This document shows, piece after piece, positions 905-14,524 of a stretch of 14,524 nucleotides of DNA (position 1 is the first letter of the stretch; the number at the start of each line of letters is the position of its first letter). This DNA is from a virus. Taxonomy: Duplodnaviria; Heunggongvirae; Uroviricota; Caudoviricetes. Under the pieces are notes generated by a model, which made no database searches, was not told the DNA's origin, and saw only the letters and a list, made by a program, of their open reading frames with translations. Both the position numbers and the translations under genes were made by a program. The stretch covers positions 1 to 14,524 of the IMG/VR virus record IMGVR_UViG_2718218128_000007, one strand, 5' to 3'.

Positions 905-1492
905 TTATGCTGGTTTTGCTGGCCAAGTGATGTCAGGTGCTTTCGATGTATCGACCTCCTGAAGTGCTTTAATGTACCAAATCCACGCAATCAGACTCGT
1001 CTTATCTTCGTCGCTAATGATTCCCAATTGCAGTTCAGTTGTCCAGAAACTGATCTTTTCCTTAGCTTTTACCAATAGAATAGCTTTTTGCTTATCAGCC
1101 ACTTCAACATCAGCTGCATACTTAGCATTTGGGTCTGATACCCACTTTTTCCCATCCCATTTCTGGAACGGATCAGAAGGAGCAATATTGGTATAGCCAT
1201 TATTAATAGGACCAATATAGTCGATAGTATGAGGCATACCGTCAGTAGTTGAATAAACTGTCTTACCTCGATGGTCTTCTTTCAAGACCCATCCTCCATT
1301 TTCGAATACAGCAACCTTTCCTGTTAGTTCATTACCCGGATCAATATCGGTAGAATTACCCGGCATACTGACGCCAATATTAATATATTCGTCTGACCAT
1401 CCTATATATTCAAAAGTTACTATATCGTAGTAATAGCAGCGGATTTCACCCGGTTCCGTTGCCAGTCCATTTTCATCAAAAACAGGTTTCAT
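905..1492 (-). CDS. tfa: phage tail fiber assembly protein (Tfa chaperone)
   Basis: 195-aa ORF with blocks typical of enterobacterial Tfa proteins (EDHRGKTVY, QKWDGKKWV, C-terminal VDTSKAPDITWPAKPA). Its ATG overlaps the stop of the upstream tail fiber ORF (TAATG on the minus strand), implying translational coupling. Confidence 0.8.
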   Translation of the reverse strand: MKPVFDENGLATEPGEIRCYYYDIVTFEYIGWSDEYINIGVSMPGNSTDIDPGNELTGKVAVFENGGWVLKEDHRGKTVYSTTDGMPHTIDYIGPINNGYTNIAPSDPFQKWDGKKWVSDPNAKYAADVEVADKQKAILLVKAKEKISFWTTELQLGIISDEDKTSLIAWIWYIKALQEVDTSKAPDITWPAKPA

Positions 1493-2253: not shown

Positions 2254-2874
2254 TTACTCCGGATATTTAAAAATTACGTAGGTATGCGACGGGCAGAGTT
2301 TGTTAAGCACACATTCGACAACGGTGTCGCCCCAGATACGCAGCGCGGAATCACAGGGATCGCCACATGTCATCCAGGTGGTGTTTGTGGCGGCTGGCAT
2401 GTTGACCTGCCAGTAATACCGCCATTCCGGCGCATTCACCGCGTCAGAACAGGCCGATGAGCAGGTGAACGTGCTTTTGTCGTATCGCGTGATGGTAGCC
2501 TCCTGTTCTTTTTTGGCGGTCAGCTCCGGATTTTTGACCATACCGCCCATTGCACCGGTGATGGTGTTGCCCTGTCTGGCAATATTTTTCACGGCACGTC
2601 GCCAGAACTCGTAGGCCACGCACCACCGCTCAAGCACCGCGAGGTCAGTCACGCACAGCAGGCCCTGACCGCAGAGTTCTTTGGTTGTCAGTTGCCACAT
2701 GATCGTAGCGAGAGGGAGATCTTCTTCAGCGAACCACTCCGGTGGCTCAACACCTTTGATGGGCGTAAAAACAGGTTCATCTTTGTTCAGGGCTCGCTTG
2801 CCGGGGTTTCCGGCCAGCGCCTTGCGCGCCGTTGGCTTGGGGCGACGCCCGGAACGCCCCGCCGTTCCAGCCAT
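2254..2874 (-). CDS. terminase small subunit, P27 family (N-terminal about 135 aa), with an atypical Cys/Trp-rich C-terminal tail; probable deletion remnant
   Basis: N-terminus [36 protein letters not shown] matches the conserved P27-family TerS start. The track start at 2883 is GTG; an ATG at 2874 is preceded by an AGGAG Shine-Dalgarno. The last about 70 aa ([40 protein letters not shown]...) do not resemble a TerS C-terminus. Confidence 0.55.
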
Positions 2875-2913
2875 ATGCGGCACTCCTGGTTAAATTTCAT
2901 TTTTCGCGGGTAT

Positions 2914-4148: not shown

Positions 4149-4592
4149 CTAATATGAACACTGTGATCTCACATACTCTTGCAGGCCATTCAATTGGTTA
4201 GTTATGGTTTCGATGCGCTCTCTGAGAACGAAATAATCTCGTTGAGCGGTGTCAGTAAGTCTGGGGCTGGAAGCATCATCCACGCCGGAGGCGGCGGTGG
4301 TTTTATGCATGTCCGGACAGACTGCTTTGACGTGCAGCCACTTACGACCAGCAGAAACATCAGCACGAAGACTTTCGATAGTCGCGTTAGCATCAGCAAG
4401 CTCCTTTGTATATCTGGCATCGAGTTCAGCTACATTACTTTGACGTTTCTGTATGTCAGCGATAATGGATGCGGCCTTATCGCGCTGCTTTTTGTAGGTG
4501 ATGGCGTTATCACGGTAATGATTAACCGCCCATGACAGGCAGACGATGATGCAGATAACCAGAACGGAGATAATCGCGGTGACTCTGCTCAT
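4149..4592 (-). CDS. Rz: Rz i-spanin (inner-membrane spanin), lambda-like
   Basis: 147 aa; N-terminus [34 protein letters not shown] is near-identical to lambda Rz as I recall it. Its start overlaps the R stop (ATGA), and it carries the embedded +1-frame Rz1. Confidence 0.9.
4202..4393 (-). CDS. Rz1: Rz1 o-spanin (outer-membrane lipoprotein) embedded out of frame within Rz
   Basis: ORF 4202..4420 (-) lies entirely inside Rz in another frame. It has a signal peptide plus lipobox ([20 protein letters not shown]) followed by TSKQSV...[10 protein letters not shown], matching the lambda Rz1 pattern. Start is placed at the ATG at 4393. Confidence 0.8.
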
Positions 4593-5065
4593 ACCTCAAT
4601 CTCTCTGACCGTTCCGCCTGCTTCTTTGAATTTTGCAATCAGGCTGTCAGTCTTATGCTCGAACTGACCATAACCAGCGCCAGGCAATGAGGCCCAGATA
4701 TTACTGCAACGGTCGATTGCCTGACGGATGTCACCGCGATCAATCATTAGTAAAGCGCCACGCTCCTTAATCTGCTGCAATGCAACAGCATCCTGGCTTT
4801 TAGGAGAGAAGTCTGTCAGCCCTAACTGCTTGCGGTAAGCATCCCACCAGCGTGAAAGAAGTTGATAACGGCCTGCGGCTGTTGATTTGAGTTTCGGGTT
4901 TAGCGTGACAAGTTTTCGAGGGTGATCGGAGTAATCAGTGAAGAGTTCGCCACCGACAATAACGTCATAACCGTGGTTACGTGTCGGTTGTCGCCCGTTA
5001 TCCGTTCCTTCTGACCAGGCCACCATATCAAGGAAAGCTTTACGCTGAGGATTTAGTACCTGCAT
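4589..5065 (-). CDS. R: endolysin R, lambda-type lytic transglycosylase
   Basis: 158 aa, [45 protein letters not shown]..., near-identical to lambda R as I recall it. AAGGAG Shine-Dalgarno upstream of the ATG. Confidence 0.9.
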
Positions 5066-5068
5066 AAA

Positions 5069-5404
5069 TTACTCCTTCGAGCTACCAAATTTGTTACCGA
5101 TTACTCGCATTGCAGCCCCACGAATAGCATCGACACCGATCAGCCCAACGCCGCCACCAATGGCAACAGAAAGAGATTTAGGCCATCCGACATACTCAAG
5201 AGCGGATGCAAAAGTCAGCGTCAGAGCACCACAGAGCAAAATCTCGAGCGTTTTTCGCTTCCAGCCACCACCACCGCCAAAATAGGCAATGCGCAAGCCA
5301 GCCATAACGATCGACATAATCACTGCGCCCAGCGGTGTGTCTCCACGCCACCAGCTCTGAAACAACTCCAGCCAGTCCGGCCAGGTATTTGGGTTATGAG
5401 GCAT
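5069..5404 (-). CDS. putative holin
   Basis: 111-aa ORF immediately upstream of R, with hydrophobic segments (GAVIMSIVMAGLRIAYF, LEILLCGALTLTFASAL, LSVAIGGGVGLIGV) and a GAGGTGAGAG Shine-Dalgarno. It does not resemble lambda S, so the call rests on position and hydropathy. Confidence 0.55.
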   Translation of the reverse strand: MPHNPNTWPDWLELFQSWWRGDTPLGAVIMSIVMAGLRIAYFGGGGGWKRKTLEILLCGALTLTFASALEYVGWPKSLSVAIGGGVGLIGVDAIRGAAMRVIGNKFGSSKE

Positions 5405-5545
5405 TTGTAGTTATCTCTCACCTCGCTGATACAGCAGGTGCAAATTGAGGAAACATCATGTTCCGCAAATCAGAAGCGGAAACGTCAAAGAAGCCGAGTC
5501 AAAGGATAACTGCGGGATAAACCAAGCCCAACGAACAACCAGGCC

Positions 5546-5578
5546 CAGAAACGACAAAACCCGCTCATCGGCGGGTTT
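5546..5578 (-). terminator. rho-independent terminator upstream of the holin (tR'-like position)
   Basis: Perfect 8-bp stem AAACCCGC (5557..5564) / GCGGGTTT (5571..5578) with a 6-nt loop; on the minus strand it is followed by UUUUGUCGUUUCU. It lies between the moron start and the holin start. Confidence 0.5.
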
Positions 5579-5670
5579 AAGCTGTGTGGCGAAGTAACCA
5601 CTCTTAACACATTACATGATAAAATGCGGACCGCGTTAGTAATATTTTTCTCATATATTGGGTTCACTAC

Positions 5671-6417
5671 ATGCGACATAATTTTTCTAAAGACACTATA
5701 AAAAAATTAGCAGAGCGGGCAGCATTCATTTGTTCAAACCCTTCATGCCCTAGATTGACCATTGGCCCATCAATTGATGGCAATAAATCAATCAAGACAG
5801 GAGTTGCTGCTCACATATGTGCAGCATCTCCTGATGGCCCACGCTATGACATGTCACAATCAGAAACAGAAAGGAAGTCAATTAACAATGGCATATGGCT
5901 GTGTGCTACTTGTTCTGTATTAATAGATAAGAATCAGGGGCTAGACTATCCGGCACCTGTATTAAGAAAATGGAAAAAAGATCATGAAAGCCTTATAAGC
6001 TCCTGTCTTGAAGGTTCGATTAATATTACCTTCGATGCTTTGAAATATATTCAACAGCATGATGAAAGAAATCTGGCAAAAAAGATTATAAATGAATTGG
6101 ATGATAAAGGGGCTTTGTTCGTAGAATATCATCTTGAAAACCCCTGTTTTGTTGCCGAATCACTCAAAGAGTTAAGAACATGTTTGACCTCTTTGCTTTC
6201 TCAAATCCCAGATGAATCACCTCTATTTATCGTTTGCAAGTCAATTCGAGAAGCATGCCGTTATTATATGAACAACACTTCTAAAGACGCAGGGATTAAA
6301 GAGTTAGAATTTTCGTTGGGAGCGGTCAGAAAAATCGTAGGTATCAACGTTAAAAGAATATCAGAAACCTACGGGGTTAAACCTAGCCCACAATTATCTA
6401 CCATAATGCCAGATTAA
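5671..6417 (+). CDS. AT-rich moron encoding a 248-aa protein with an N-terminal HNH-like (His-Me finger type) Cys/His motif and an uncharacterised C-terminal domain
   Basis: Long ORF on the strand opposite to all flanking genes. Motif: CSNPSCPRLT ... GVAAHICAASPDGPRY ... ERKSINNGIWLCATCSVLIDKN, i.e. CxxxxC ... AHI ... N ... CxxC, with Ser where the final His is usual. Sampled 60-nt stretches are roughly one-third GC, against roughly half or more in neighbouring genes. A terminator follows it. Confidence 0.65.
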   Translation: MRHNFSKDTIKKLAERAAFICSNPSCPRLTIGPSIDGNKSIKTGVAAHICAASPDGPRYDMSQSETERKSINNGIWLCATCSVLIDKNQGLDYPAPVLRKWKKDHESLISSCLEGSINITFDALKYIQQHDERNLAKKIINELDDKGALFVEYHLENPCFVAESLKELRTCLTSLLSQIPDESPLFIVCKSIREACRYYMNNTSKDAGIKELEFSLGAVRKIVGINVKRISETYGVKPSPQLSTIMPD

Positions 6418-6426
6418 ATCTGTTAC

Positions 6427-6469
6427 GCAGCAACAAAGTTAAACTCTATGTTGCTGCCTTAATTTTATT
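6427..6469 (+). terminator. rho-independent terminator of the moron gene
   Basis: Perfect 9-bp stem GCAGCAACA (6427..6435) / TGTTGCTGC (6449..6457) with a 13-nt loop, followed by CTTAATTTTATT on the plus strand. It sits between the moron stop (6417) and the convergent Q stop (6468). Confidence 0.55.
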
Positions 6470-6830
6470 ACTCCATTTCTAAACGAATATCCAGCATCGA
6501 GAGACAACCATCTATAAACCCTTCAGCCAACTGTATCTCTATACGTATCAATTTCTCATCTTTTTTGTATGCTTTTGCTATCTTCCTTTTCGAGATGCCA
6601 TACAGGTAATGAGCCACAATCAGAGAGTGCTCATACGGTTTTCTCTTCTTAAGAAGAGCAAGACAACCTTCAATAATTAATGCATCACTATCTGAACAAG
6701 CCTGACGTGTTTTGCTTGTATAGGGAAGAAGCCCTTTAAACCCAGCAGCTATAGGAGAATAGTCTACTCCAGAACTATCACTCGCCGCCCATGCTCCCCA
6801 ACGATCCAGAACCATCTGAATATCACGCAT
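6468..6830 (-). CDS. Q: late-gene antitermination protein Q (Phage_antitermQ type, as in phage 21 / DLP12-like elements)
   Basis: MRDIQMVLDRWGAWAA...IAAGFKGLL...ALIIEGCLALLKK...LAEGFIDGCLSMLDIRLEME matches my recollection of the small Q-type antiterminators. The track start at 6845 is TTG; the ATG at 6830 has a GGAGAAA Shine-Dalgarno. Operon position is upstream of the lysis genes. Confidence 0.75.
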   Translation of the reverse strand: MRDIQMVLDRWGAWAASDSSGVDYSPIAAGFKGLLPYTSKTRQACSDSDALIIEGCLALLKKRKPYEHSLIVAHYLYGISKRKIAKAYKKDEKLIRIEIQLAEGFIDGCLSMLDIRLEME

Positions 6831-6847
6831 CAACTTTCTCCACAAAA

Positions 6848-7171
6848 TCAGGCCAGCACACCAGTTGCCAGCGCACGATCGATAAAACGAAATATCAGCT
6901 CCAGTTGGGAGCCATACTTCTCTTCAAATGCCACGGTACCCTGGCGACGCGCCTTACGCGTTAACCAGCCTTCTGCTTCCAGCCGTGCGATAGCCGTTCT
7001 GACGGTACTCATCCCCGCGCCAATCTGACGGGCAATGGTTTCAATTGATGGCCAGCACACACCTTCGTCATTACTGAAATCAGCCAGGCGGGCCATAATT
7101 GCCACGCTGGATAATTTCATGCCTGACGCAGCGCAACCATCCCATACATAGCCGGTTAATTTAGTGCTCAT
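6848..7171 (-). CDS. winged-helix/HTH DNA-binding protein, possibly the N-terminal remnant of a replication-initiator-like protein
   Basis: 107 aa with an HTH-like segment LSSVAIMARLADFSNDEGVCWPSIETIARQIGAGMSTVRTAIARLEAEGWL. Its start overlaps the end of the upstream frameshifted gene and its stop abuts the Q start. Confidence 0.45.
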   Translation of the reverse strand: MSTKLTGYVWDGCAASGMKLSSVAIMARLADFSNDEGVCWPSIETIARQIGAGMSTVRTAIARLEAEGWLTRKARRQGTVAFEEKYGSQLELIFRFIDRALATGVLA

Positions 7172-9292: not shown

Positions 9293-12200
9293 TCACACGC
9301 TGCGCCTTCGAGAATATTCATTTAATCGCTGATAACGAACATCTTGCTCCAGTTGTGGAGCAGCTTGAACAATTTGAAGCAAGCATTGCCCCAACTCTCG
9401 AGGCCCCCAGTGTTGGTCGGCAATCACGGCATTCAGCAGGGATAGAGCGTCCGCAGGATATCGGCTGCAAATATCTGATTTTAGCAAAAGGCGAACGTCG
9501 TAGCTAAGGTGTTCGAGCGGTTGCAGCCAGTCCTGCACCACTGCCAAAGCCGCCGGAAATTCACCTCGGGCAGCAATCACCATACGAGTCAACGATTCGG
9601 ATATGCGTGGGGTGGCCAAGTTGCGGGACTTTGGCCAAACCTGTTGCCAAAATGGCTGGACACGATTTTTCCAATACTCCTCGCGCTGATCGCCCGCACC
9701 TTCAAGTGCCTGGTATAACGCCTGCGCGGCTACCTCCAGACCTTCTTGTGGAAGAGCACTAATTGCCGTTCGGAACTCCTCCACGGTATATCCCTCGGTA
9801 GGGCCCAGAGCTGCATAAGTCAGGAAAGTAGCGAATTGCTGCCGGTGCTCGCCAAGATCAGAATAGTGATTGGCGCTCTCCAAAAAATCTGACTTGAAAG
9901 CTATCAGCAACGGTTCATACAGGCGTGGCGACCAGAGGAAGCCTTCCCACACAGCTTGTGCTTCGACGGGATTACTCCAAGCAAACAAGGGCAATAGATA
10001 CTGTTCGGTCCAAGGTCGATCTACGCGAAAAAATGCGATCAGCCGCGACCCCAGCAACACCCGACCATGGCGGAATAGCTCTATCTGTACATTACACAAT
10101 TTGGTGAAAAGTGTTTTCAATTCAACAGGAAGCAAATCATTGTCATTCGGGTTCTGTTTGAACCATAGGGTGATCAGTGATTGCGTGACATGCCCAATGG
10201 GATGATTGATCGCCGTAGAAACAGGATCATAGGTCTCAATTCCGTTTCGAATGGTGCTAGACTCTGGGCTTGTTTCTATCATCAGAACCCGACGACAAAG
10301 GGCCAGTAGAATCTCCTCGTGGCAGAGGATGGGCTTCGAAGCCTCCTCCATCCACCAAGTGACAGCGTGGGAAATCTCCTGAAGTACTGCGTCAGGCATG
10401 TCAAGCACCAACGGTGCGGCGTACCGCCACGAACGCAAAATCATCCCTGGTTCAGCCCAAGTCTGCAGAGCTTCACGCCACCGACCAACAGGCCACACAT
10501 CATCTTGTGATAGTTTACGTAACGCATACAGACTGTGAAAAAAGCGCGTACGGCAAACATCACTCCAAGTGTCCTCATAGAAAGGCAGTCTTTCTGGCAT
10601 AGGCTTTGCGAGCCATTGCACTAATTCCTGCCACTTACGGGGCGCAATGTCGACATCTATACTCTCCTCGAAGCCTGGATCACCGGTTCCGCTCATCCAG
10701 TGAGAGAATTCATCACGCTCGTTGGTTGCCAGTTGCCATTTTGGGTATGCTGTGGATATTTCCGTCAAACGTGTAGCCGCAGACTCTCCCAAAACAAGGC
10801 CCGCTCCCCTGAGCTTCGCTAGACACAACCAGACGGAATGAGCCACCAAATAATGCCACCTGTCTGCTTCCAAATTATCCTCGTACATCTCGCGCGGAGG
10901 CCCTGCCAAGATAGCAGTTTCCAGACGCTCTTGTGCAATTCCTGTCAGATGTCGTCCCTGCAAAACAAACAGTCTGAATACCTCTCGCCCAGTATCCGTG
11001 GCCCACAACCACCATGAACCGTCCTCTAACAACCAATTAACCCACCGCTCAGGTGGTATGCAGTTGTCTTGGCTTGCGGAAAACAGTGCCAGACGTTTGA
11101 AGGTGGGATATGGCAACTCAAACCAATTCTGAGCAATGCGCGTGGCCTGATCGCTGTCTTTGGCTCGAACGGCTAACCATGAATCCCGAAGTAATTCAAT
11201 CAGGCTCACCCAATCGCGGAACCCCCGGTTCTGCCAGTGCGGAGTGATGGACGGCAAATCCCAATGCGAGCGGTCGTGACGATCGTCGGACTCTCCCAAC
11301 TCCCGCAACAAGTCCAGTGCATCACGCAACAACTGCTGAAAATCTTCCAACAGGTATGGCAAGGACGATTTCCATGACTCGTCAGCAAGGTCGAACAGGG
11401 TTGAACGTACGTAATCAGCAGTCAGCACCAGCTCCCAATCCACCAATTGCTTGATTCGCAAGGGCTCATCAGTGCTGCTCGAATCGTCTTCACTATAGCG
11501 AAACGGCCGCCTCAACATAACCTTGGGAGAAAGCAACTCGCGTAACTCCAAACGCAATGTAGTCGTCAAGCCTTCATTCTTTAAGCGGTTTTGCCAACGA
11601 TACAAATCCAGGTTCTGCAATGGCGATTTCACACGACCACTAAGCAGAAGCCGCCATAAAGTAGACATAGGTGGACCAGGAATAGCCAGGGGGGAATGCA
11701 AGAGAATTTCATCTAACTCAGAAGTCTTACGCTCCCGCATCAGTGCTGCTAAGCGATCTAGTTCGCTCTCAATCAGAAACATCCAACGGTCGTGTATTTG
11801 TCCGCCGCGTTCAGCAATCCATATGATCAACCTAGGGTCGCCCAGATAACGAACTAGCCAACGGGCTATATGGGACATTACGTCATCCCATTTGCTAGCA
11901 CTGACACATCCAGAAACCAGCGACATCTGCGGGGCTAGCTCATAGGGCGCAGGACGCTGAACCAGACTGAATCGGAGTTTCGGGTCAATTTCGACATGCG
12001 GAGATACACAAAAGCGTGGCAGATCGCTGTATTTAAATCGTTCGTCCGAGAAAGCTTTCAATAACCAATCCAGCGGCGGTGCAGGATTGAGTTCCGCAAA
12101 ACATTTTGCTGGTAAACCTGACTTATCAGATAAGGCCCACATCATCCGACCAACGAAATCGTCCTGCCGAGTGCTATCCTGCGGGCGGGCCAGAGCATGT

Positions 12201-13120
12201 TTGACGACAATGGCTTCTTTGCCTTGTATACCATCGCGATAAATATTTGCCCAAGCACGCAATGTATGGTGCATCGCTGAATGATCATTGGAGTCCGCCG
12301 GTACGGTGTAAAGGATGGGGGTGACCCCCTTGGCCTCCCACTCGATAGATTTCCGGTGCTCCTGCCCCGGCTCACATTCTCCTAGTGCCCATACTTGCGG
12401 CGTGACTTCACCGAGCCTCCGATCTGCTGCCAGTGCGTCCATCATATAGCGTAGCACCGGGTCGTTGATGCTGTAGCCCACGAAGCAGACCACGTAGTTA
12501 CGGAACAAGTCACTTACAAAACGGGCAGCCCAGCGTTCCGTGAGATAGGCTAAGCCAAAGTCTCCACTAGTGACAACCAGACGATTCAGAGCAGTATCGT
12601 CTGTCTTTTCCGGTAACAACCCATGCAGGTAGACTATTCCGTCCCAGCGACTATTTTTCGGAATTGGCAGCATCGGCGCTACATAAGCCTGAAACGCTTG
12701 GGCCGTGCGTTTAGCTGCCACATGAAATAAGCGGTCAAAGTTGGTAGTAACTAACCGAAGGGCACCATCGCGACTACGCGCCAAACGCAACAGCGCCATC
12801 TGAGTATCAGTTGCGCCTCTATAGTGAAGTTTTGGCTTAAGGGCTTGTTCCAGCGCGCGACGGACGGCTATACGCTGTCCCGGTAGGCGCCGTTCCAACA
12901 AATCCAATGTGGCGTCGAACTGACCGCGCTTGAAGGCCTCACACTCAATTTCTGAAAGTGTTGTTCCGTTCAACTGGTAAATCCGCTTTACCAATCCCTT
13001 GAAACCTGGCAAACCAGCAGGGTAGGAAATGCCTGCCCCGCAGAAGAACACCACGCGGCCTTCCTCGTGCGCCTGCAAAAGTTCATCCGGAATATCAGGG
13101 CCGTTGGTGATAAATTGCAT
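9293..13120 (-). CDS. large single-gene SIR2-domain protein (defence-associated sirtuin-like): N-terminal SIR2 NADase-type domain plus about 1000-aa Trp-rich helical C-terminal region; candidate anti-phage/abortive-infection effector
   Basis: 1275-aa uninterrupted ORF with a strong Shine-Dalgarno (AGGAGGAAAAGGA) before the ATG at 13120. N-terminal motifs of the prokaryotic SIR2 family: VVFFCGAGISYPAGLPGF (NAD-binding GAGIS-type), LVTTNFDRLF (Asn 127), IVYLHGLL (His 165, 38 residues after the Asn) and CFVGYSINDP. No Walker A/P-loop is visible. Located between the integrase and the xis-like gene. Confidence 0.8.
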   Translation of the reverse strand: MQFITNGPDIPDELLQAHEEGRVVFFCGAGISYPAGLPGFKGLVKRIYQLNGTTLSEIECEAFKRGQFDATLDLLERRLPGQRIAVRRALEQALKPKLHYRGATDTQMALLRLARSRDGALRLVTTNFDRLFHVAAKRTAQAFQAYVAPMLPIPKNSRWDGIVYLHGLLPEKTDDTALNRLVVTSGDFGLAYLTERWAARFVSDLFRNYVVCFVGYSINDPVLRYMMDALAADRRLGEVTPQVWALGECEPGQEHRKSIEWEAKGVTPILYTVPADSNDHSAMHHTLRAWANIYRDGIQGKEAIVVKHALARPQDSTRQDDFVGRMMWALSDKSGLPAKCFAELNPAPPLDWLLKAFSDERFKYSDLPRFCVSPHVEIDPKLRFSLVQRPAPYELAPQMSLVSGCVSASKWDDVMSHIARWLVRYLGDPRLIIWIAERGGQIHDRWMFLIESELDRLAALMRERKTSELDEILLHSPLAIPGPPMSTLWRLLLSGRVKSPLQNLDLYRWQNRLKNEGLTTTLRLELRELLSPKVMLRRPFRYSEDDSSSTDEPLRIKQLVDWELVLTADYVRSTLFDLADESWKSSLPYLLEDFQQLLRDALDLLRELGESDDRHDRSHWDLPSITPHWQNRGFRDWVSLIELLRDSWLAVRAKDSDQATRIAQNWFELPYPTFKRLALFSASQDNCIPPERWVNWLLEDGSWWLWATDTGREVFRLFVLQGRHLTGIAQERLETAILAGPPREMYEDNLEADRWHYLVAHSVWLCLAKLRGAGLVLGESAATRLTEISTAYPKWQLATNERDEFSHWMSGTGDPGFEESIDVDIAPRKWQELVQWLAKPMPERLPFYEDTWSDVCRTRFFHSLYALRKLSQDDVWPVGRWREALQTWAEPGMILRSWRYAAPLVLDMPDAVLQEISHAVTWWMEEASKPILCHEEILLALCRRVLMIETSPESSTIRNGIETYDPVSTAINHPIGHVTQSLITLWFKQNPNDNDLLPVELKTLFTKLCNVQIELFRHGRVLLGSRLIAFFRVDRPWTEQYLLPLFAWSNPVEAQAVWEGFLWSPRLYEPLLIAFKSDFLESANHYSDLGEHRQQFATFLTYAALGPTEGYTVEEFRTAISALPQEGLEVAAQALYQALEGAGDQREEYWKNRVQPFWQQVWPKSRNLATPRISESLTRMVIAARGEFPAALAVVQDWLQPLEHLSYDVRLLLKSDICSRYPADALSLLNAVIADQHWGPRELGQCLLQIVQAAPQLEQDVRYQRLNEYSRRRSV

Positions 13121-13306: not shown

Positions 13307-14524
13307 TCAGTTAGAGTCTGAGCAAGTAATTATCGATTCAATCCTCTCCCACCATGCCAAGTAAGCTTTACGCTGTTCTTCTAGATAATCGCTCTTATCA
13401 TAAACTTGCCATACCCCTGGCAGCTTATGACCAAGCATGATTTCTGCGATATGAGGCGCAGTAAGATCAGAAAAATTTGTTCGTGCTGTCCGTCTCAAGT
13501 CATGAAGAGACCAATGAGGGAATTGATACCCAAAACGCCGCCATGCGTATTGCATTAAATTGTAAGGTAGCGACTGCAAGGATGTCCGACCAACTGGTTC
13601 CCTGCTTCCTTCCTTAGTAAAAAGCATATCGGAACCGTTGTTCATAGAGATAACGTATTTTATAAGCTCTTCAACCGGTTCAATAATGGGCCGCTTTAGC
13701 GGTTCGTCTGTTATATCCCCTGTCTTATGTCGTTCTGGTGGTACAGTCCATATTTTATTAATGAAATCAAAATCGTCCACCTTGGCAGTAATTAGCTCTG
13801 AACTACGGCAACCAAAATGCAGCAATAGTTTAATGAAGGCCCGGTATTTAGGAACCATTCGAGAACCATCGATCGCAGCATAAAGGATTTTAATTTCATC
13901 ATGTGTCAGAAACCGTTTCTTCTGACCTTTACGGATATCCATATCTTTACCCGTGATATCCGACAGCGGGCGAGTTTCAATGAGCTTTCTCTTATACGCC
14001 CAGACATGGGCCTGCTTTGCGTTAATTAGCAATCGGTCTGCTATTGCTGGAGTCTTAGTGCTAAGAGGCTCCAGGACTTCTAACCAATCATGCAATGTAG
14101 CTGCATCGTGAGGGATATTCCCGATTTTAGAGAACAGGTGCAGCTCAAACGAGCGGAGTATCTGTTCAGAACCTTTTTTATTTTTTACACAATATGCTTC
14201 ATACCAAGCACGGATCACAGATTCTACCGTCATGGCTTCAGTAGCTTTACGTTTTTCTGCCAGCTTGACCAATCGTGGATTGCGGTTTGACTCGAGTTCA
14301 CCACGAAGACGGATAACTTCTTCTCTGGCCTCTTTTAGTCCAGTTGACGGGTAAGTTCCGATATCAAGACGCTCACCTTTCCCCGCCCACTGATAACGAT
14401 ATTGGAACACTACGCGACCTTTCGGTGATACTCTAACAGACAGACCATCACGATCGGATTTAACCAAAACCTTATCACGTTCCTTTCCAACGACTGAACG
14501 CAACCACGCATCAGACAGCGCCAT
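13307..14524 (-). CDS. int: tyrosine site-specific integrase (P4-like, with arm-type N-terminal domain)
   Basis: 405-aa ORF whose ATG is at the window edge (14522..14524). The N-terminus (MALSDAWLRSV...GLSVRVSPKGRVVFQYRYQWAGKGERLDIGTYP...LKEAREE) resembles P4-type integrase arm-binding domains. C-terminal catalytic-region motifs: HDLRRTARTNF and LGHKLPGVWQVYDKSDY (candidate tyrosine nucleophile). Confidence 0.85.
   Translation of the reverse strand: MALSDAWLRSVVGKERDKVLVKSDRDGLSVRVSPKGRVVFQYRYQWAGKGERLDIGTYPSTGLKEAREEVIRLRGELESNRNPRLVKLAEKRKATEAMTVESVIRAWYEAYCVKNKKGSEQILRSFELHLFSKIGNIPHDAATLHDWLEVLEPLSTKTPAIADRLLINAKQAHVWAYKRKLIETRPLSDITGKDMDIRKGQKKRFLTHDEIKILYAAIDGSRMVPKYRAFIKLLLHFGCRSSELITAKVDDFDFINKIWTVPPERHKTGDITDEPLKRPIIEPVEELIKYVISMNNGSDMLFTKEGSREPVGRTSLQSLPYNLMQYAWRRFGYQFPHWSLHDLRRTARTNFSDLTAPHIAEIMLGHKLPGVWQVYDKSDYLEEQRKAYLAWWERIESIITCSDSN

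What the first reader, a model, noticed from the sequence alone, without database searches (positions are those of the whole stretch)
5405..5670. Late-promoter/terminator region displaced from Q by the moron: candidate Q-utilisation site upstream of the holin
A strong intrinsic terminator on the minus strand (stem 5557..5578, then a U-rich tract) sits about 140 nt upstream of the holin start, as tR' does in lambda. Reading the minus strand, a weak sigma70-like pair TTACTA (15-nt spacer) TATCAT lies just upstream of it (-10 at about 5616..5621). If these are the late promoter and terminator, Q would act on a site separated from its own gene by the convergent moron and its terminator.
Basis: inference. 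Interest (0 to 1): 0.4.

Follow-up and report, generated by a model that had tools for sequence, protein, structure and literature searches.

The report
Displaced Q-dependent late promoter-terminator module
The stretch upstream of the holin gene is this prophage's late-gene switch, the promoter, antiterminator target and terminator used by protein Q; it is an ordinary member of a known family that a reverse-oriented defence-like gene has pushed about 0.8 kb away from the Q gene.

Summary
The minus-strand hairpin at 5578..5557 with its U-rich tail is real. Window 5650..5553 is a conserved ~100-bp module. Its transcribed part (5602..5556) is 85% identical to the first 46 nt of the pR' transcript of 933W-type Shiga-toxin phages, whose start site has been mapped. 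In close relatives the same module sits directly after the Q stop codon.

The family-wide -10 is TAATGT (5614..5609), which predicts a start at A5602 and a ~50-nt terminated RNA.

A 9-bp palindrome, GCGGTCCGC (5634..5626), lies at a fixed distance upstream of that -10. Its sequence class co-varies without exception with the helix-turn-helix segment of 93 distinct Q proteins, so it is the best candidate for the Q-binding element.

This is a new member of a known kind. The palindrome/Q specificity code and the reverse-strand cargo hotspot between Q and pR' are the only moderately novel points. Nothing has been shown experimentally for this locus.

The parts
6468..6845 (-). Antiterminator Q gene. 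The ORF runs from TTG at 6845; the likely start is ATG 6830, giving 120 aa that begin MRDIQMVL.
   Evidence: Pfam PF06530 Phage_antitermQ, E 6.6e-52. About 30% identity to Q21 of PDB 6p18/6jnx, E 2e-4. Identical to the RefSeq 'antiterminator Q family protein' in L010.
6427..6470 (+). Terminator of the moron: hairpin 6427..6457 followed by CTTAATTTTATTA. It fills the 50-nt gap between the moron stop and the Q stop.
   Evidence: Fold of 6418..6470 on the + strand gives -15.2 kcal/mol; sequence.
5671..6417 (+). Reverse-oriented cargo gene ('moron'), 248 aa, with an HNH-endonuclease-like N-terminal half. It is convergent with Q and divergent from the holin.
   Evidence: No Pfam hit. PADLOC PDC-M68A 7.5e-27 and HNH effector models. 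RefSeq names it 'DUF6650 family protein'.
5645..5649 (-). A tract at the upstream edge of the conserved module, about -47..-43 from the predicted start. UP-element-like. Homology with other cargo types begins here.
   Evidence: Alignments A1 and A2; family consensus 'aaaaat'. The function is inferred.
5637..5642 (-). It lies just upstream of the palindrome and 22 nt from the conserved -10.
   Evidence: Sequence. This register is not conserved as a promoter.
5626..5634 (-). Palindrome GCGGTCCGC, the candidate Q-binding element (QBE). Its centre is 16 nt upstream of the -10 hexamer.
   Evidence: Nearly invariant within its class while the flanks vary. The position is fixed at 15.5-16 nt in all classes, and the class maps 1:1 to the Q cluster. 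It co-varies perfectly with the HTH segment in 93 distinct Q proteins.
5616..5621 (-).
   Evidence: Present. Only 15% of class members have A2 and T6 at this register.
5609..5614 (-). TAATGT, the family-conserved -10 hexamer.
   Evidence: Aligns with the annotated 933W pR' -10, TATCAT. A2 and T6 are present in 100% of the two other main classes and in every hexamer listed for this class.
5594..5609 (-). Best-conserved block, TGTTAAGAGTGGTTAC, spanning the predicted transcription start A5602. It contains an extended -10-like TGnTAAGAG, a candidate sigma-dependent pause element.
   Evidence: Invariant in the family consensus. The start site is inferred from the 933W homologue (PMC7547250). The pause role is inferred only.
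5586..5601 (-). Small 5-bp stem GUGGU/GCCAC at +2..+17 of the predicted RNA. Its loop TACTTC corresponds to the site annotated 'qut' in 933W.
   Evidence: Folds; 933W annotation. Covariation is weak.
5544..5578 (-). Intrinsic terminator-like hairpin (stem-loop 5578..5557) with tail UUUUGUCGUUUCU. It is the only terminator between the predicted start and the holin, so it is the functional tR' candidate. Predicted terminated RNA is about 50 nt.
   Evidence: Conserved as a structure with 41 sequence variants across the family.
5405..5543 (-). Untranslated leader between the terminator and the holin start.
   Evidence: 88-95% identical in SfIV, SfII and many E. coli prophages.
5069..5404 (-). Lambda-family holin S, the first late gene.
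   Evidence: PF05106 2.6e-27; TIGR01594 7e-37.
4149..5065 (-). Endolysin (5065..4589) and Rz spanin (4592..4149, with the embedded Rz1-like ORF 4420..4202).
   Evidence: RefSeq GH24 and lysis protein in L010; PF03245 7.9e-39; ORF list.

Best explanation
Window 5650..5544 (minus strand) is the Q-dependent late regulatory module of this prophage. It consists of a sigma-70 promoter, a Q-recognition site and a promoter-proximal intrinsic terminator in front of the lysis genes.

Proposed mechanism: RNA polymerase starts at about A5602, using the -10 TAATGT (5614..5609) and an upstream A tract. Without Q it terminates at the hairpin 5578..5557, giving an RNA of about 50 nt. Q, encoded 0.8 kb upstream at 6845..6468, binds the palindrome GCGGTCCGC (5634..5626) in the promoter. 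It loads onto the early-paused, sigma-containing polymerase and makes it terminator-resistant, so the holin, endolysin and spanins are transcribed.

The reverse-strand cargo gene with its own terminator (5671..6470) was inserted between the last codons of Q and the A tract of the module. This leaves the late transcript intact and puts the cargo outside it.

Shown here: homology, synteny, conservation and co-variation. Inferred: the start site (from the 933W homologue), Q binding to the palindrome, pausing, and termination efficiency.
For: (1) Q is a PF06530 (Q21/Q933W family) protein (family definition in bioRxiv 10.1101/651190).

(2) Window 5609..5556 is 85-87% identical to the region annotated 'pR' promoter | qut | terminator' in 933W, VT1-Sakai and phi24B.

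(3) The 258-nt pR' transcript of 933W-type phages was mapped by dRNA-seq and Term-seq. Its length and its RNase E site at +173 place the start at L006 ~708 (PMC7547250). Nucleotides 1-46 of that transcript align with window 5602..5556, E 3e-9.

(4) The module follows the Q stop codon directly in PhiR49_2, 1720a-02 and Stx2_14040, and lies beyond reverse-strand genes in cdtI, SfIV, E. coli K-12 DLP12 and this window.

(5) In 110 loci holding both a Q and the module, Q is always upstream on the same strand, at 7-42 nt or 628-2887 nt.

(6) In a sample seeded on Q only (80 Enterobacterales genomes), all 42 profile hits lie downstream of Q on the Q strand.

(7) The window holds a single module copy (E 1.6e-15) and none beside Q.

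(8) The palindrome class matches the Q cluster 1:1 at a fixed position. It tracks the HTH segment in 93 distinct Q proteins with no exception. The most variable part of Q is that HTH segment.

(9) The terminator hairpin is conserved as a structure: 75/96 modules against about 1/96 in controls.

(10) SfIV is deposited as a complete phage genome carrying the displaced layout. From my own recollection of its description, not re-read here, it is an inducible phage.

(11) Expression of the DLP12 lysis operon is reported to depend on its Q-type antiterminator (PMC7918800).
Against: There are no transcript or binding data for this locus or for this palindrome class.

The -35 region for TAATGT is poor (ACGCGG/AACGCG), so promoter strength is uncertain.

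The sigma-dependent pause element, a defining part of every studied Q system, could not be identified with confidence.

The U tract is short (UUUUG). The homologous hairpin in Stx phages does not stop all transcripts, since a 258-nt RNA ends at a second terminator (PMC7547250). Read-through without Q may therefore be substantial.

The QBE of the only structurally solved family member, Q21, is a direct repeat (TGAGCA twice, positions about -25..-10; PMC6606751), not a palindrome at about -32..-24.

Co-variation of neighbouring elements can partly reflect linkage.

The prophage in the window is a deletion derivative, so the switch may no longer serve phage production.
Confidence: 0.8

Rival explanations
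1. Same module and function, but the reader's promoter is the operative one in this palindrome class. In this version -35 is TTACTA (5642..5637) and -10 is TATCAT (5621..5616), with a start near 5609. The palindrome then lies in the spacer, and TAATGT or TGTTAAGAG act as the sigma-dependent pause element(s).
For: The QBE of lambda and phage 21 lies between -35 and -10 (PMC6606751), and this model reproduces that geometry. TAATGT has no usable -35 in this class. SfIV and L013 have TCACTA-17-TAGATT in a nearby register.
Against: The spacer is 15 nt. Only 15% of the 40 unique class members have A2 and T6 at that register, against every listed hexamer at the TAATGT register. In the 933W and DLP12 class the TAATGT-equivalent hexamer has a good -35 at 16 nt and fits the mapped start site.
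Confidence: 0.12
2. The late promoter is still next to Q (6418..6467). Q-modified polymerase reads antisense through the moron, and the hairpin at 5578..5557 is just one terminator on its way.
For: This is the canonical position of pR' in lambda, 21, 82 and 933W.
Against: The 50-nt gap is filled by the moron's own terminator hairpin and has no match to the module profile. In all displaced relatives the palindrome, -10 and conserved block travel with the lysis side, not with Q.
Confidence: 0.03
3. In this degraded prophage the module is a relic. The hairpin merely insulates the lysis genes from read-through out of the early region or the antisense moron. Any lysis-gene expression comes from host-controlled, Q-independent transcription.
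For: The window lacks replication and head genes and carries fused ORFs. The DLP12 lysis operon is also reported to respond to RpoE and Hha (PMC7918800).
Against: Q, the palindrome, the -10, the conserved block, the terminator and S-R-Rz are all intact. They are identical to those of an apparently complete prophage, L010.
Confidence: 0.05

Closest known systems
pR'-qut-tR' region of Shiga-toxin phages 933W, H-19B, VT1/VT2-Sakai and phi24B (Q933W type)
   Same: Both have a Q of Pfam PF06530. Both share the conserved block TAAGAGTGGTTAC and a homologous first hairpin; the first 46 nt of the mapped transcript are 85% identical to the window. Both have a -10 hexamer two bases before TAAGAG, an upstream A tract, and a palindrome centred 15.5-16 nt upstream of the -10.
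   Different: In the Stx phages the promoter overlaps the end of Q; here it is 863 nt from the Q stop to the conserved core. Their palindrome is TTTACGATCGTAAA, which doubles as a good -35, whereas here it is GCGGTCCGC with no good -35. They carry about 200 further nt and a second terminator that yield the 258-nt StxS precursor and the 74-nt StxS sRNA. The window lacks that part and has no match to StxS-S.
E. coli K-12 cryptic prophage DLP12: quuD - nmpC (reverse) - essD rrrD rzpD
   Same: The layout is the same: Q, a reverse-strand cargo gene, the module, then the holin. The lysis operon is reported to be controlled by the Q-type antiterminator (PMC7918800).
   Different: The cargo differs (porin nmpC with IS5, 2887 nt). 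The palindrome class differs (TTTACGTACGTAAA), as does the Q cluster (about 50% identity). The holin belongs to a different family.
Phage 21 Q / pR'21 (structures 6P18, 6P19, 6JNX)
   Same: Both belong to the same protein family (PF06530). The presumed mechanism is the same: Q bound to a site in the late promoter loads onto sigma-paused polymerase and narrows the RNA exit channel.
   Different: Protein identity is only about 30%. The QBE of 21 is a direct repeat, TGAGCA twice, at about -25..-10; here the candidate is a palindrome at about -32..-24, and no TGAGCA is present.
Lambda pR' - 6S RNA - tR'
   Same: Both combine a constitutive promoter, an early terminator and Q read-through into S R Rz, with a short terminated RNA as by-product.
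   Different: Lambda Q belongs to an unrelated family (PF03589). Its terminated RNA is 194 nt, against about 50 nt predicted here. There is no sequence similarity. The lambda details rest on established knowledge and were not tested here.

Membership tests
Lambdoid Q-dependent late regulatory cassette | A Q antiterminator gene of a recognised Q family, upstream and on the same strand | tested here: met
   PF06530, E 6.6e-52; related to Q21 structures.
Lambdoid Q-dependent late regulatory cassette | The late promoter lies immediately downstream of the Q gene | tested here: not met
   863 nt separate the Q stop from the module core, and they hold a reverse-strand gene. The same departure occurs in DLP12, SfIV and cdtI.
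Lambdoid Q-dependent late regulatory cassette | A sigma-70 promoter with a defined transcription start | tested here: inconclusive
   The -10 TAATGT is conserved family-wide, and the start is inferred from the 933W homologue (PMC7547250). The -35 is poor, and there are no transcript data for this locus.
Lambdoid Q-dependent late regulatory cassette | A Q-binding element within the promoter, specific for the cognate Q | tested here: inconclusive
   The palindrome class co-varies perfectly with the Q HTH segment in 93 proteins at a fixed position. Binding itself cannot be tested with these tools.
Lambdoid Q-dependent late regulatory cassette | A sigma-dependent pause element (-10-like) in the initially transcribed region | tested here: inconclusive
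   The candidates are TGTTAAGAG (5609..5601, overlapping the start) and TACTTC (5596..5591, lacking T6). Neither is a clear match.
Lambdoid Q-dependent late regulatory cassette | An intrinsic terminator between the promoter and the late genes | tested here: met
   Hairpin 5578..5557 with a U-rich tail. It is structurally conserved across the family. Its efficiency is untested.
Lambdoid Q-dependent late regulatory cassette | Late (lysis or morphogenesis) genes downstream on the same strand | tested here: met
   Holin, endolysin and Rz/Rz1 lie at 5404..4149.
Phage 21-type QBE | Two direct repeats of TGAGCA between -35 and -10 | tested here: not met
   There is no TGAGCA on either strand of 5590..5670. 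The QBE definition is from PMC6606751.
StxS small RNA | A 258-nt pR'-tR' transcript processed to a 74-nt 3' fragment | tested here: not met
   Only nt 1-46 of StxS-L align with the window, and the StxS-S part has no match. No Rfam family reaches threshold.

The most novel reading that the evidence does not exclude
The short palindrome at a fixed distance upstream of the -10 is the Q-binding element of the large QuuD/Q933W branch of PF06530. It comes in at least six specificity classes, each matched to a distinct HTH sequence of Q: GCGGTCCGC, GCGTACGC, TTTACGWWCGTAAA, TGTTATAACA, TGGAATTCCA and ATTCGTTACGAAT. This recognition mode (two-fold symmetric, overlapping the -35 region) would differ from the direct-repeat QBE of Q21.

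In addition, the few bases between the Q stop codon and this element would be a dedicated insertion hotspot for reverse-strand cargo. Such cargo is often anti-phage defence (Kiwa, a KAP NTPase candidate, an HNH-like candidate) and so stays outside the late transcript.
Probability: 0.5. Interest if true: 0.5.

Novelty: new member of a known kind. Interest (0 to 1): 0.3.

Why it matters
For this locus, the analysis supplies coordinates for the unannotated late switch of a common family of E. coli prophages and corrects the likely -10 and start site.

More generally, it shows that Q and its target need not be adjacent. In 81 of 110 sampled loci (a redundant sample) they are separated by 0.6-2.9 kb of reverse-strand cargo. 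Annotation rules that look for pR' right after Q would therefore miss it.

The Q-HTH / palindrome correspondence gives a testable specificity code for a Q subfamily that includes the Shiga-toxin phage antiterminators. It would matter for predicting which prophages can trans-activate each other's late genes or toxin genes.

Tried and rejected
Rfam search of 5300..5800 at E up to 10 returned only chance-level hits and no known RNA family.

The generic promoter scan did not flag either candidate promoter; both fall below its 9/12 threshold or outside its spacer range.

I looked for published oligonucleotide sequences of pR'21 to compare directly. They are only in figures, which are not held. The Plunkett 1999 paper on 933W is not held, and the Rueggeberg 2015 paper on DLP12 Q was not found.

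I could not verify the offset between the Sakai genome coordinates in the StxS paper and RefSeq version 2. I used the transcript length and the +173 RNase E site instead.

A second terminator between 5553 and the holin was considered. Only a weak 6-bp stem (UUCCGC...GCGGAA) without a U tract is present.

An RNA-level role for the small GUGGU/GCCAC stem was considered. Pairing is only partly kept in distant relatives, so it was not pursued.

The 64-aa ORF 5485..5679 across the module was treated as spurious.

Full report
**Layout of the region**

Read on the minus strand, the order of features is as follows:
- Q antiterminator, 6845..6468 (Pfam PF06530, E 6.6e-52).
- A 248-aa gene on the opposite strand, 5671..6417, with its own terminator hairpin in the 50-nt gap next to the Q stop.
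- A 266-nt intergenic region, 5670..5405.
- A lambda-family holin (5404..5069), the endolysin and Rz/Rz1.

The Q protein is about 30% identical to Q21, whose structures are solved. PF06530 is the Q21/Q933W family as defined by Yin et al. (bioRxiv 10.1101/651190).

**The observation**

The hairpin AAACCCGCCGATGAGCGGGTTT lies at 5578..5557 on the minus strand and is followed by TTTTGTCGTTTCT. Its dG is -12.0 kcal/mol. They are a weak match of the kind expected by chance; the promoter scan finds 19 sites against 19.3 in shuffles, and this pair is not among them.

**What the region is homologous to**

A search of phage genomes shows that window ~5650..5553 is a conserved module.
- In PhiR49_2, 1720a-02 and Stx2_14040, whose Q genes are close relatives, the module begins at the Q stop codon.
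- In phage cdtI, phage SfIV and this window, it lies beyond one or two reverse-strand genes.
- The downstream half (5609..5556) is 85-87% identical to the stretch annotated 'pR' promoter | qut | terminator' in 933W, VT1-Sakai and phi24B.
- E. coli K-12 has the same displaced layout in DLP12: quuD, reverse-strand nmpC, the module, then essD.

**Where transcription probably starts**

Sy et al. (PMC7547250) mapped the pR' start of the 933W-type Sakai phages by dRNA-seq. They mapped the 3' end 258 nt downstream by Term-seq and placed an RNase E cut (GU|AUU) at +173. In the 933W sequence these numbers put the start at L006 ~708, the second-to-last base of TAAGAG. That is 7 nt after the annotated -10, TATCAT.

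Nucleotides 1-46 of that transcript align with window 5602..5556 (85%, E 3e-9). The homologous start is therefore A5602, and the homologous -10 is TAATGT (5614..5609).

Register analysis supports this. In 97 unique modules, this register has A at position 2 and T at position 6 in 100% of members of the two other main classes. The hexamers listed for this class all share those two bases. For the 933W and DLP12 class the same register also has a good -35 at 16 nt. In the window's class the -35 is poor, so an upstream A tract (5649..5645) may contribute; this is inference.

**The terminator**

The hairpin is the only terminator-like element between the predicted start and the holin. It predicts a terminated RNA of about 50 nt.

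Across 96 unique related modules, 75 have a G+C hairpin with a T run 25-71 nt after the conserved core on this strand. The opposite strand has 1/96 and shuffles about 1/96. There are 41 different hairpin sequences, so the structure is kept, not just the sequence.

Two caveats apply. The U tract here is only four U. In the Stx phages the homologous first hairpin does not stop all transcripts, because the 258-nt StxS precursor ends at a second terminator (PMC7547250). The window lacks that extra ~200 nt and has no homologue of the 74-nt StxS.

**Is this the target of the window's Q?**

Three tests bear on this.

(a) Synteny. In 110 loci that hold both the conserved core and a Q homologue (IMG/VR scan plus the phage and genome records fetched earlier), Q is always upstream on the same strand. 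The Q stop lies either 7-42 nt from the core (adjacent) or 628-2887 nt from it (displaced).

(b) An unbiased sample seeded on the Q protein alone. This drew 80 loci from different Enterobacterales species. A profile of the module gave 42 hits (29 with E at or below 0.01). All 42 lie downstream of Q on the Q strand.

(c) Specificity. A short palindrome lies 15.5-16 nt upstream of the -10 hexamer in every class. Its sequence maps one-to-one onto Q clusters:
- GCGGTCCGC (this window)
- GCGTACGC
- TTTACG(A/T)(T/A)CGTAAA (933W, DLP12)
- TGTTATAACA
- TGGAATTCCA
- ATTCGTTACGAAT

Within a class the palindrome is nearly invariant while its flanks vary. In 93 distinct Q proteins, the segment that aligns with the helix-turn-helix of Q21 carries a class signature that tracks the palindrome without exception. 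For example, SKR...DEKxIRI goes with GCGGTCCGC, SLR...CSDGTIRK with GCGTACGC, and TFM...CSDxxIGKRL with TTTACGWWCGTAAA.

The window's Q has the SKR/DEKLIRI signature and its module has GCGGTCCGC (5634..5626), so they are a cognate pair. The window holds one module (E 1.6e-15) and none beside Q.

This makes the palindrome the best candidate for the Q-binding element. Three reservations remain. Linkage could contribute to the correlation. The solved Q21 QBE is a direct repeat of TGAGCA at about -25..-10 (PMC6606751), not a palindrome at about -32..-24. Binding is untested.

**What could not be resolved**

The sigma-dependent pause element, which every studied Q system needs, is not clearly identifiable. 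The most conserved block of the whole module is TGnTAAGAGTGGTYAC. It spans the start site and contains an extended -10-like motif. The loop TACTTC (5596..5591) corresponds to the 'qut' annotated in 933W but lacks the final T. Both are only candidates.

**The displacement**

Among 81 displaced loci there are 24 different cargo cassettes, and in 22 of them every ORF is on the strand opposite to Q and the late genes. The cargo includes:
- the porin NmpC;
- a KAP-family NTPase matching the PADLOC candidate PDC-S20;
- a Kiwa KwaA/KwaB pair;
- the window's HNH-like protein, PDC-M68A.

The junctions lie within the last codons of Q and at the A tract of the module. The cargo therefore sits outside the late transcript, and Q keeps its target.

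SfIV is deposited as a complete phage genome with a gap of about 2.6 kb that includes an IS element. cdtI has a gap of 1.5 kb. This suggests the layout is compatible with phage growth; their inducibility is my recollection of the original descriptions. Expression of the DLP12 lysis operon is reported to depend on its Q-type antiterminator (PMC7918800).

**Verdict**

The finding is real and its main interpretation is right. The exact promoter hexamers are probably wrong by 7 nt, and the terminator's strength is unproven. It is an ordinary member of a known regulatory family in a layout already present in E. coli K-12.

The palindrome-Q specificity pattern and the reverse-strand cargo hotspot were not described in the papers I could search. 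They are the only points with some novelty.

Noticed in passing
window 9293..13120 (-) and 13307..14524 (-): A full-length Dsr1 anti-phage sirtuin (PADLOC E 0; NCBIfam NF041818 equivalog) sits directly next to the prophage tyrosine integrase, the usual position for defence cargo at a prophage end.
   Followed up: partly
window 5671..6417 (+): The moron's N-terminal 130 aa match HNH-endonuclease effector models and the PADLOC candidate defence protein PDC-M68A (7.5e-27). Pfam finds nothing, and RefSeq calls it DUF6650. It may be an anti-phage nuclease.
   Followed up: partly
loci L012, L024, L102, L015 and others, between Q and the module: The Q|pR' junction holds 24 different cargo cassettes in 81 loci, and 22 of them are entirely on the reverse strand. 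They include Kiwa (KwaA/KwaB), a KAP NTPase (PDC-S20) and the porin NmpC. This looks like an insertion hotspot for defence genes and morons.
   Followed up: partly
window 6848..7171 (-), 2254..2883 (-), and the whole window: The prophage appears to be a deletion derivative. One ORF joins an HTH_36 N-terminus to the last 28 residues of DUF968. Another joins a small-terminase domain to a Mu Gp48-like C-terminus and is followed directly by tail-fibre genes. No complete E. coli genome covers more than 64% of the window, and then only in five pieces spread over about 20 kb.
   Followed up: partly
window 5616..5645 (+): A weak divergent promoter-like pair, ATGATA-18-TAATAT, lies on the + strand inside the module and overlaps the palindrome. 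Only 21 nt separate the module boundary from the moron ATG, so the moron's promoter must overlap pR'. Q binding could therefore also affect the moron.
   Followed up: no
L015, L025, L029, L099 (DLP12-like loci), about 40 nt after the core: Many DLP12-type copies carry GAGCTGG instead of GAGCGGG in the 3' arm of the terminator hairpin, which breaks a G-C pair. K-12 itself has the intact version. This could be a naturally leaky variant of tR'.
   Followed up: no
L006 734..756 against 937..965 (phage 933W): The first hairpin of the 933W pR' leader has seven U's and looks like a strong terminator. Even so, published mapping finds the 258-nt transcript ending at the second terminator. The fate of polymerases at the first hairpin (about +50) seems not to have been examined.
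   Followed up: partly
window 4202..4420 (-): An Rz1-type lipoprotein ORF with the lipobox LVVSGC is embedded out of frame within the Rz gene, as expected for a two-component spanin.
   Followed up: no
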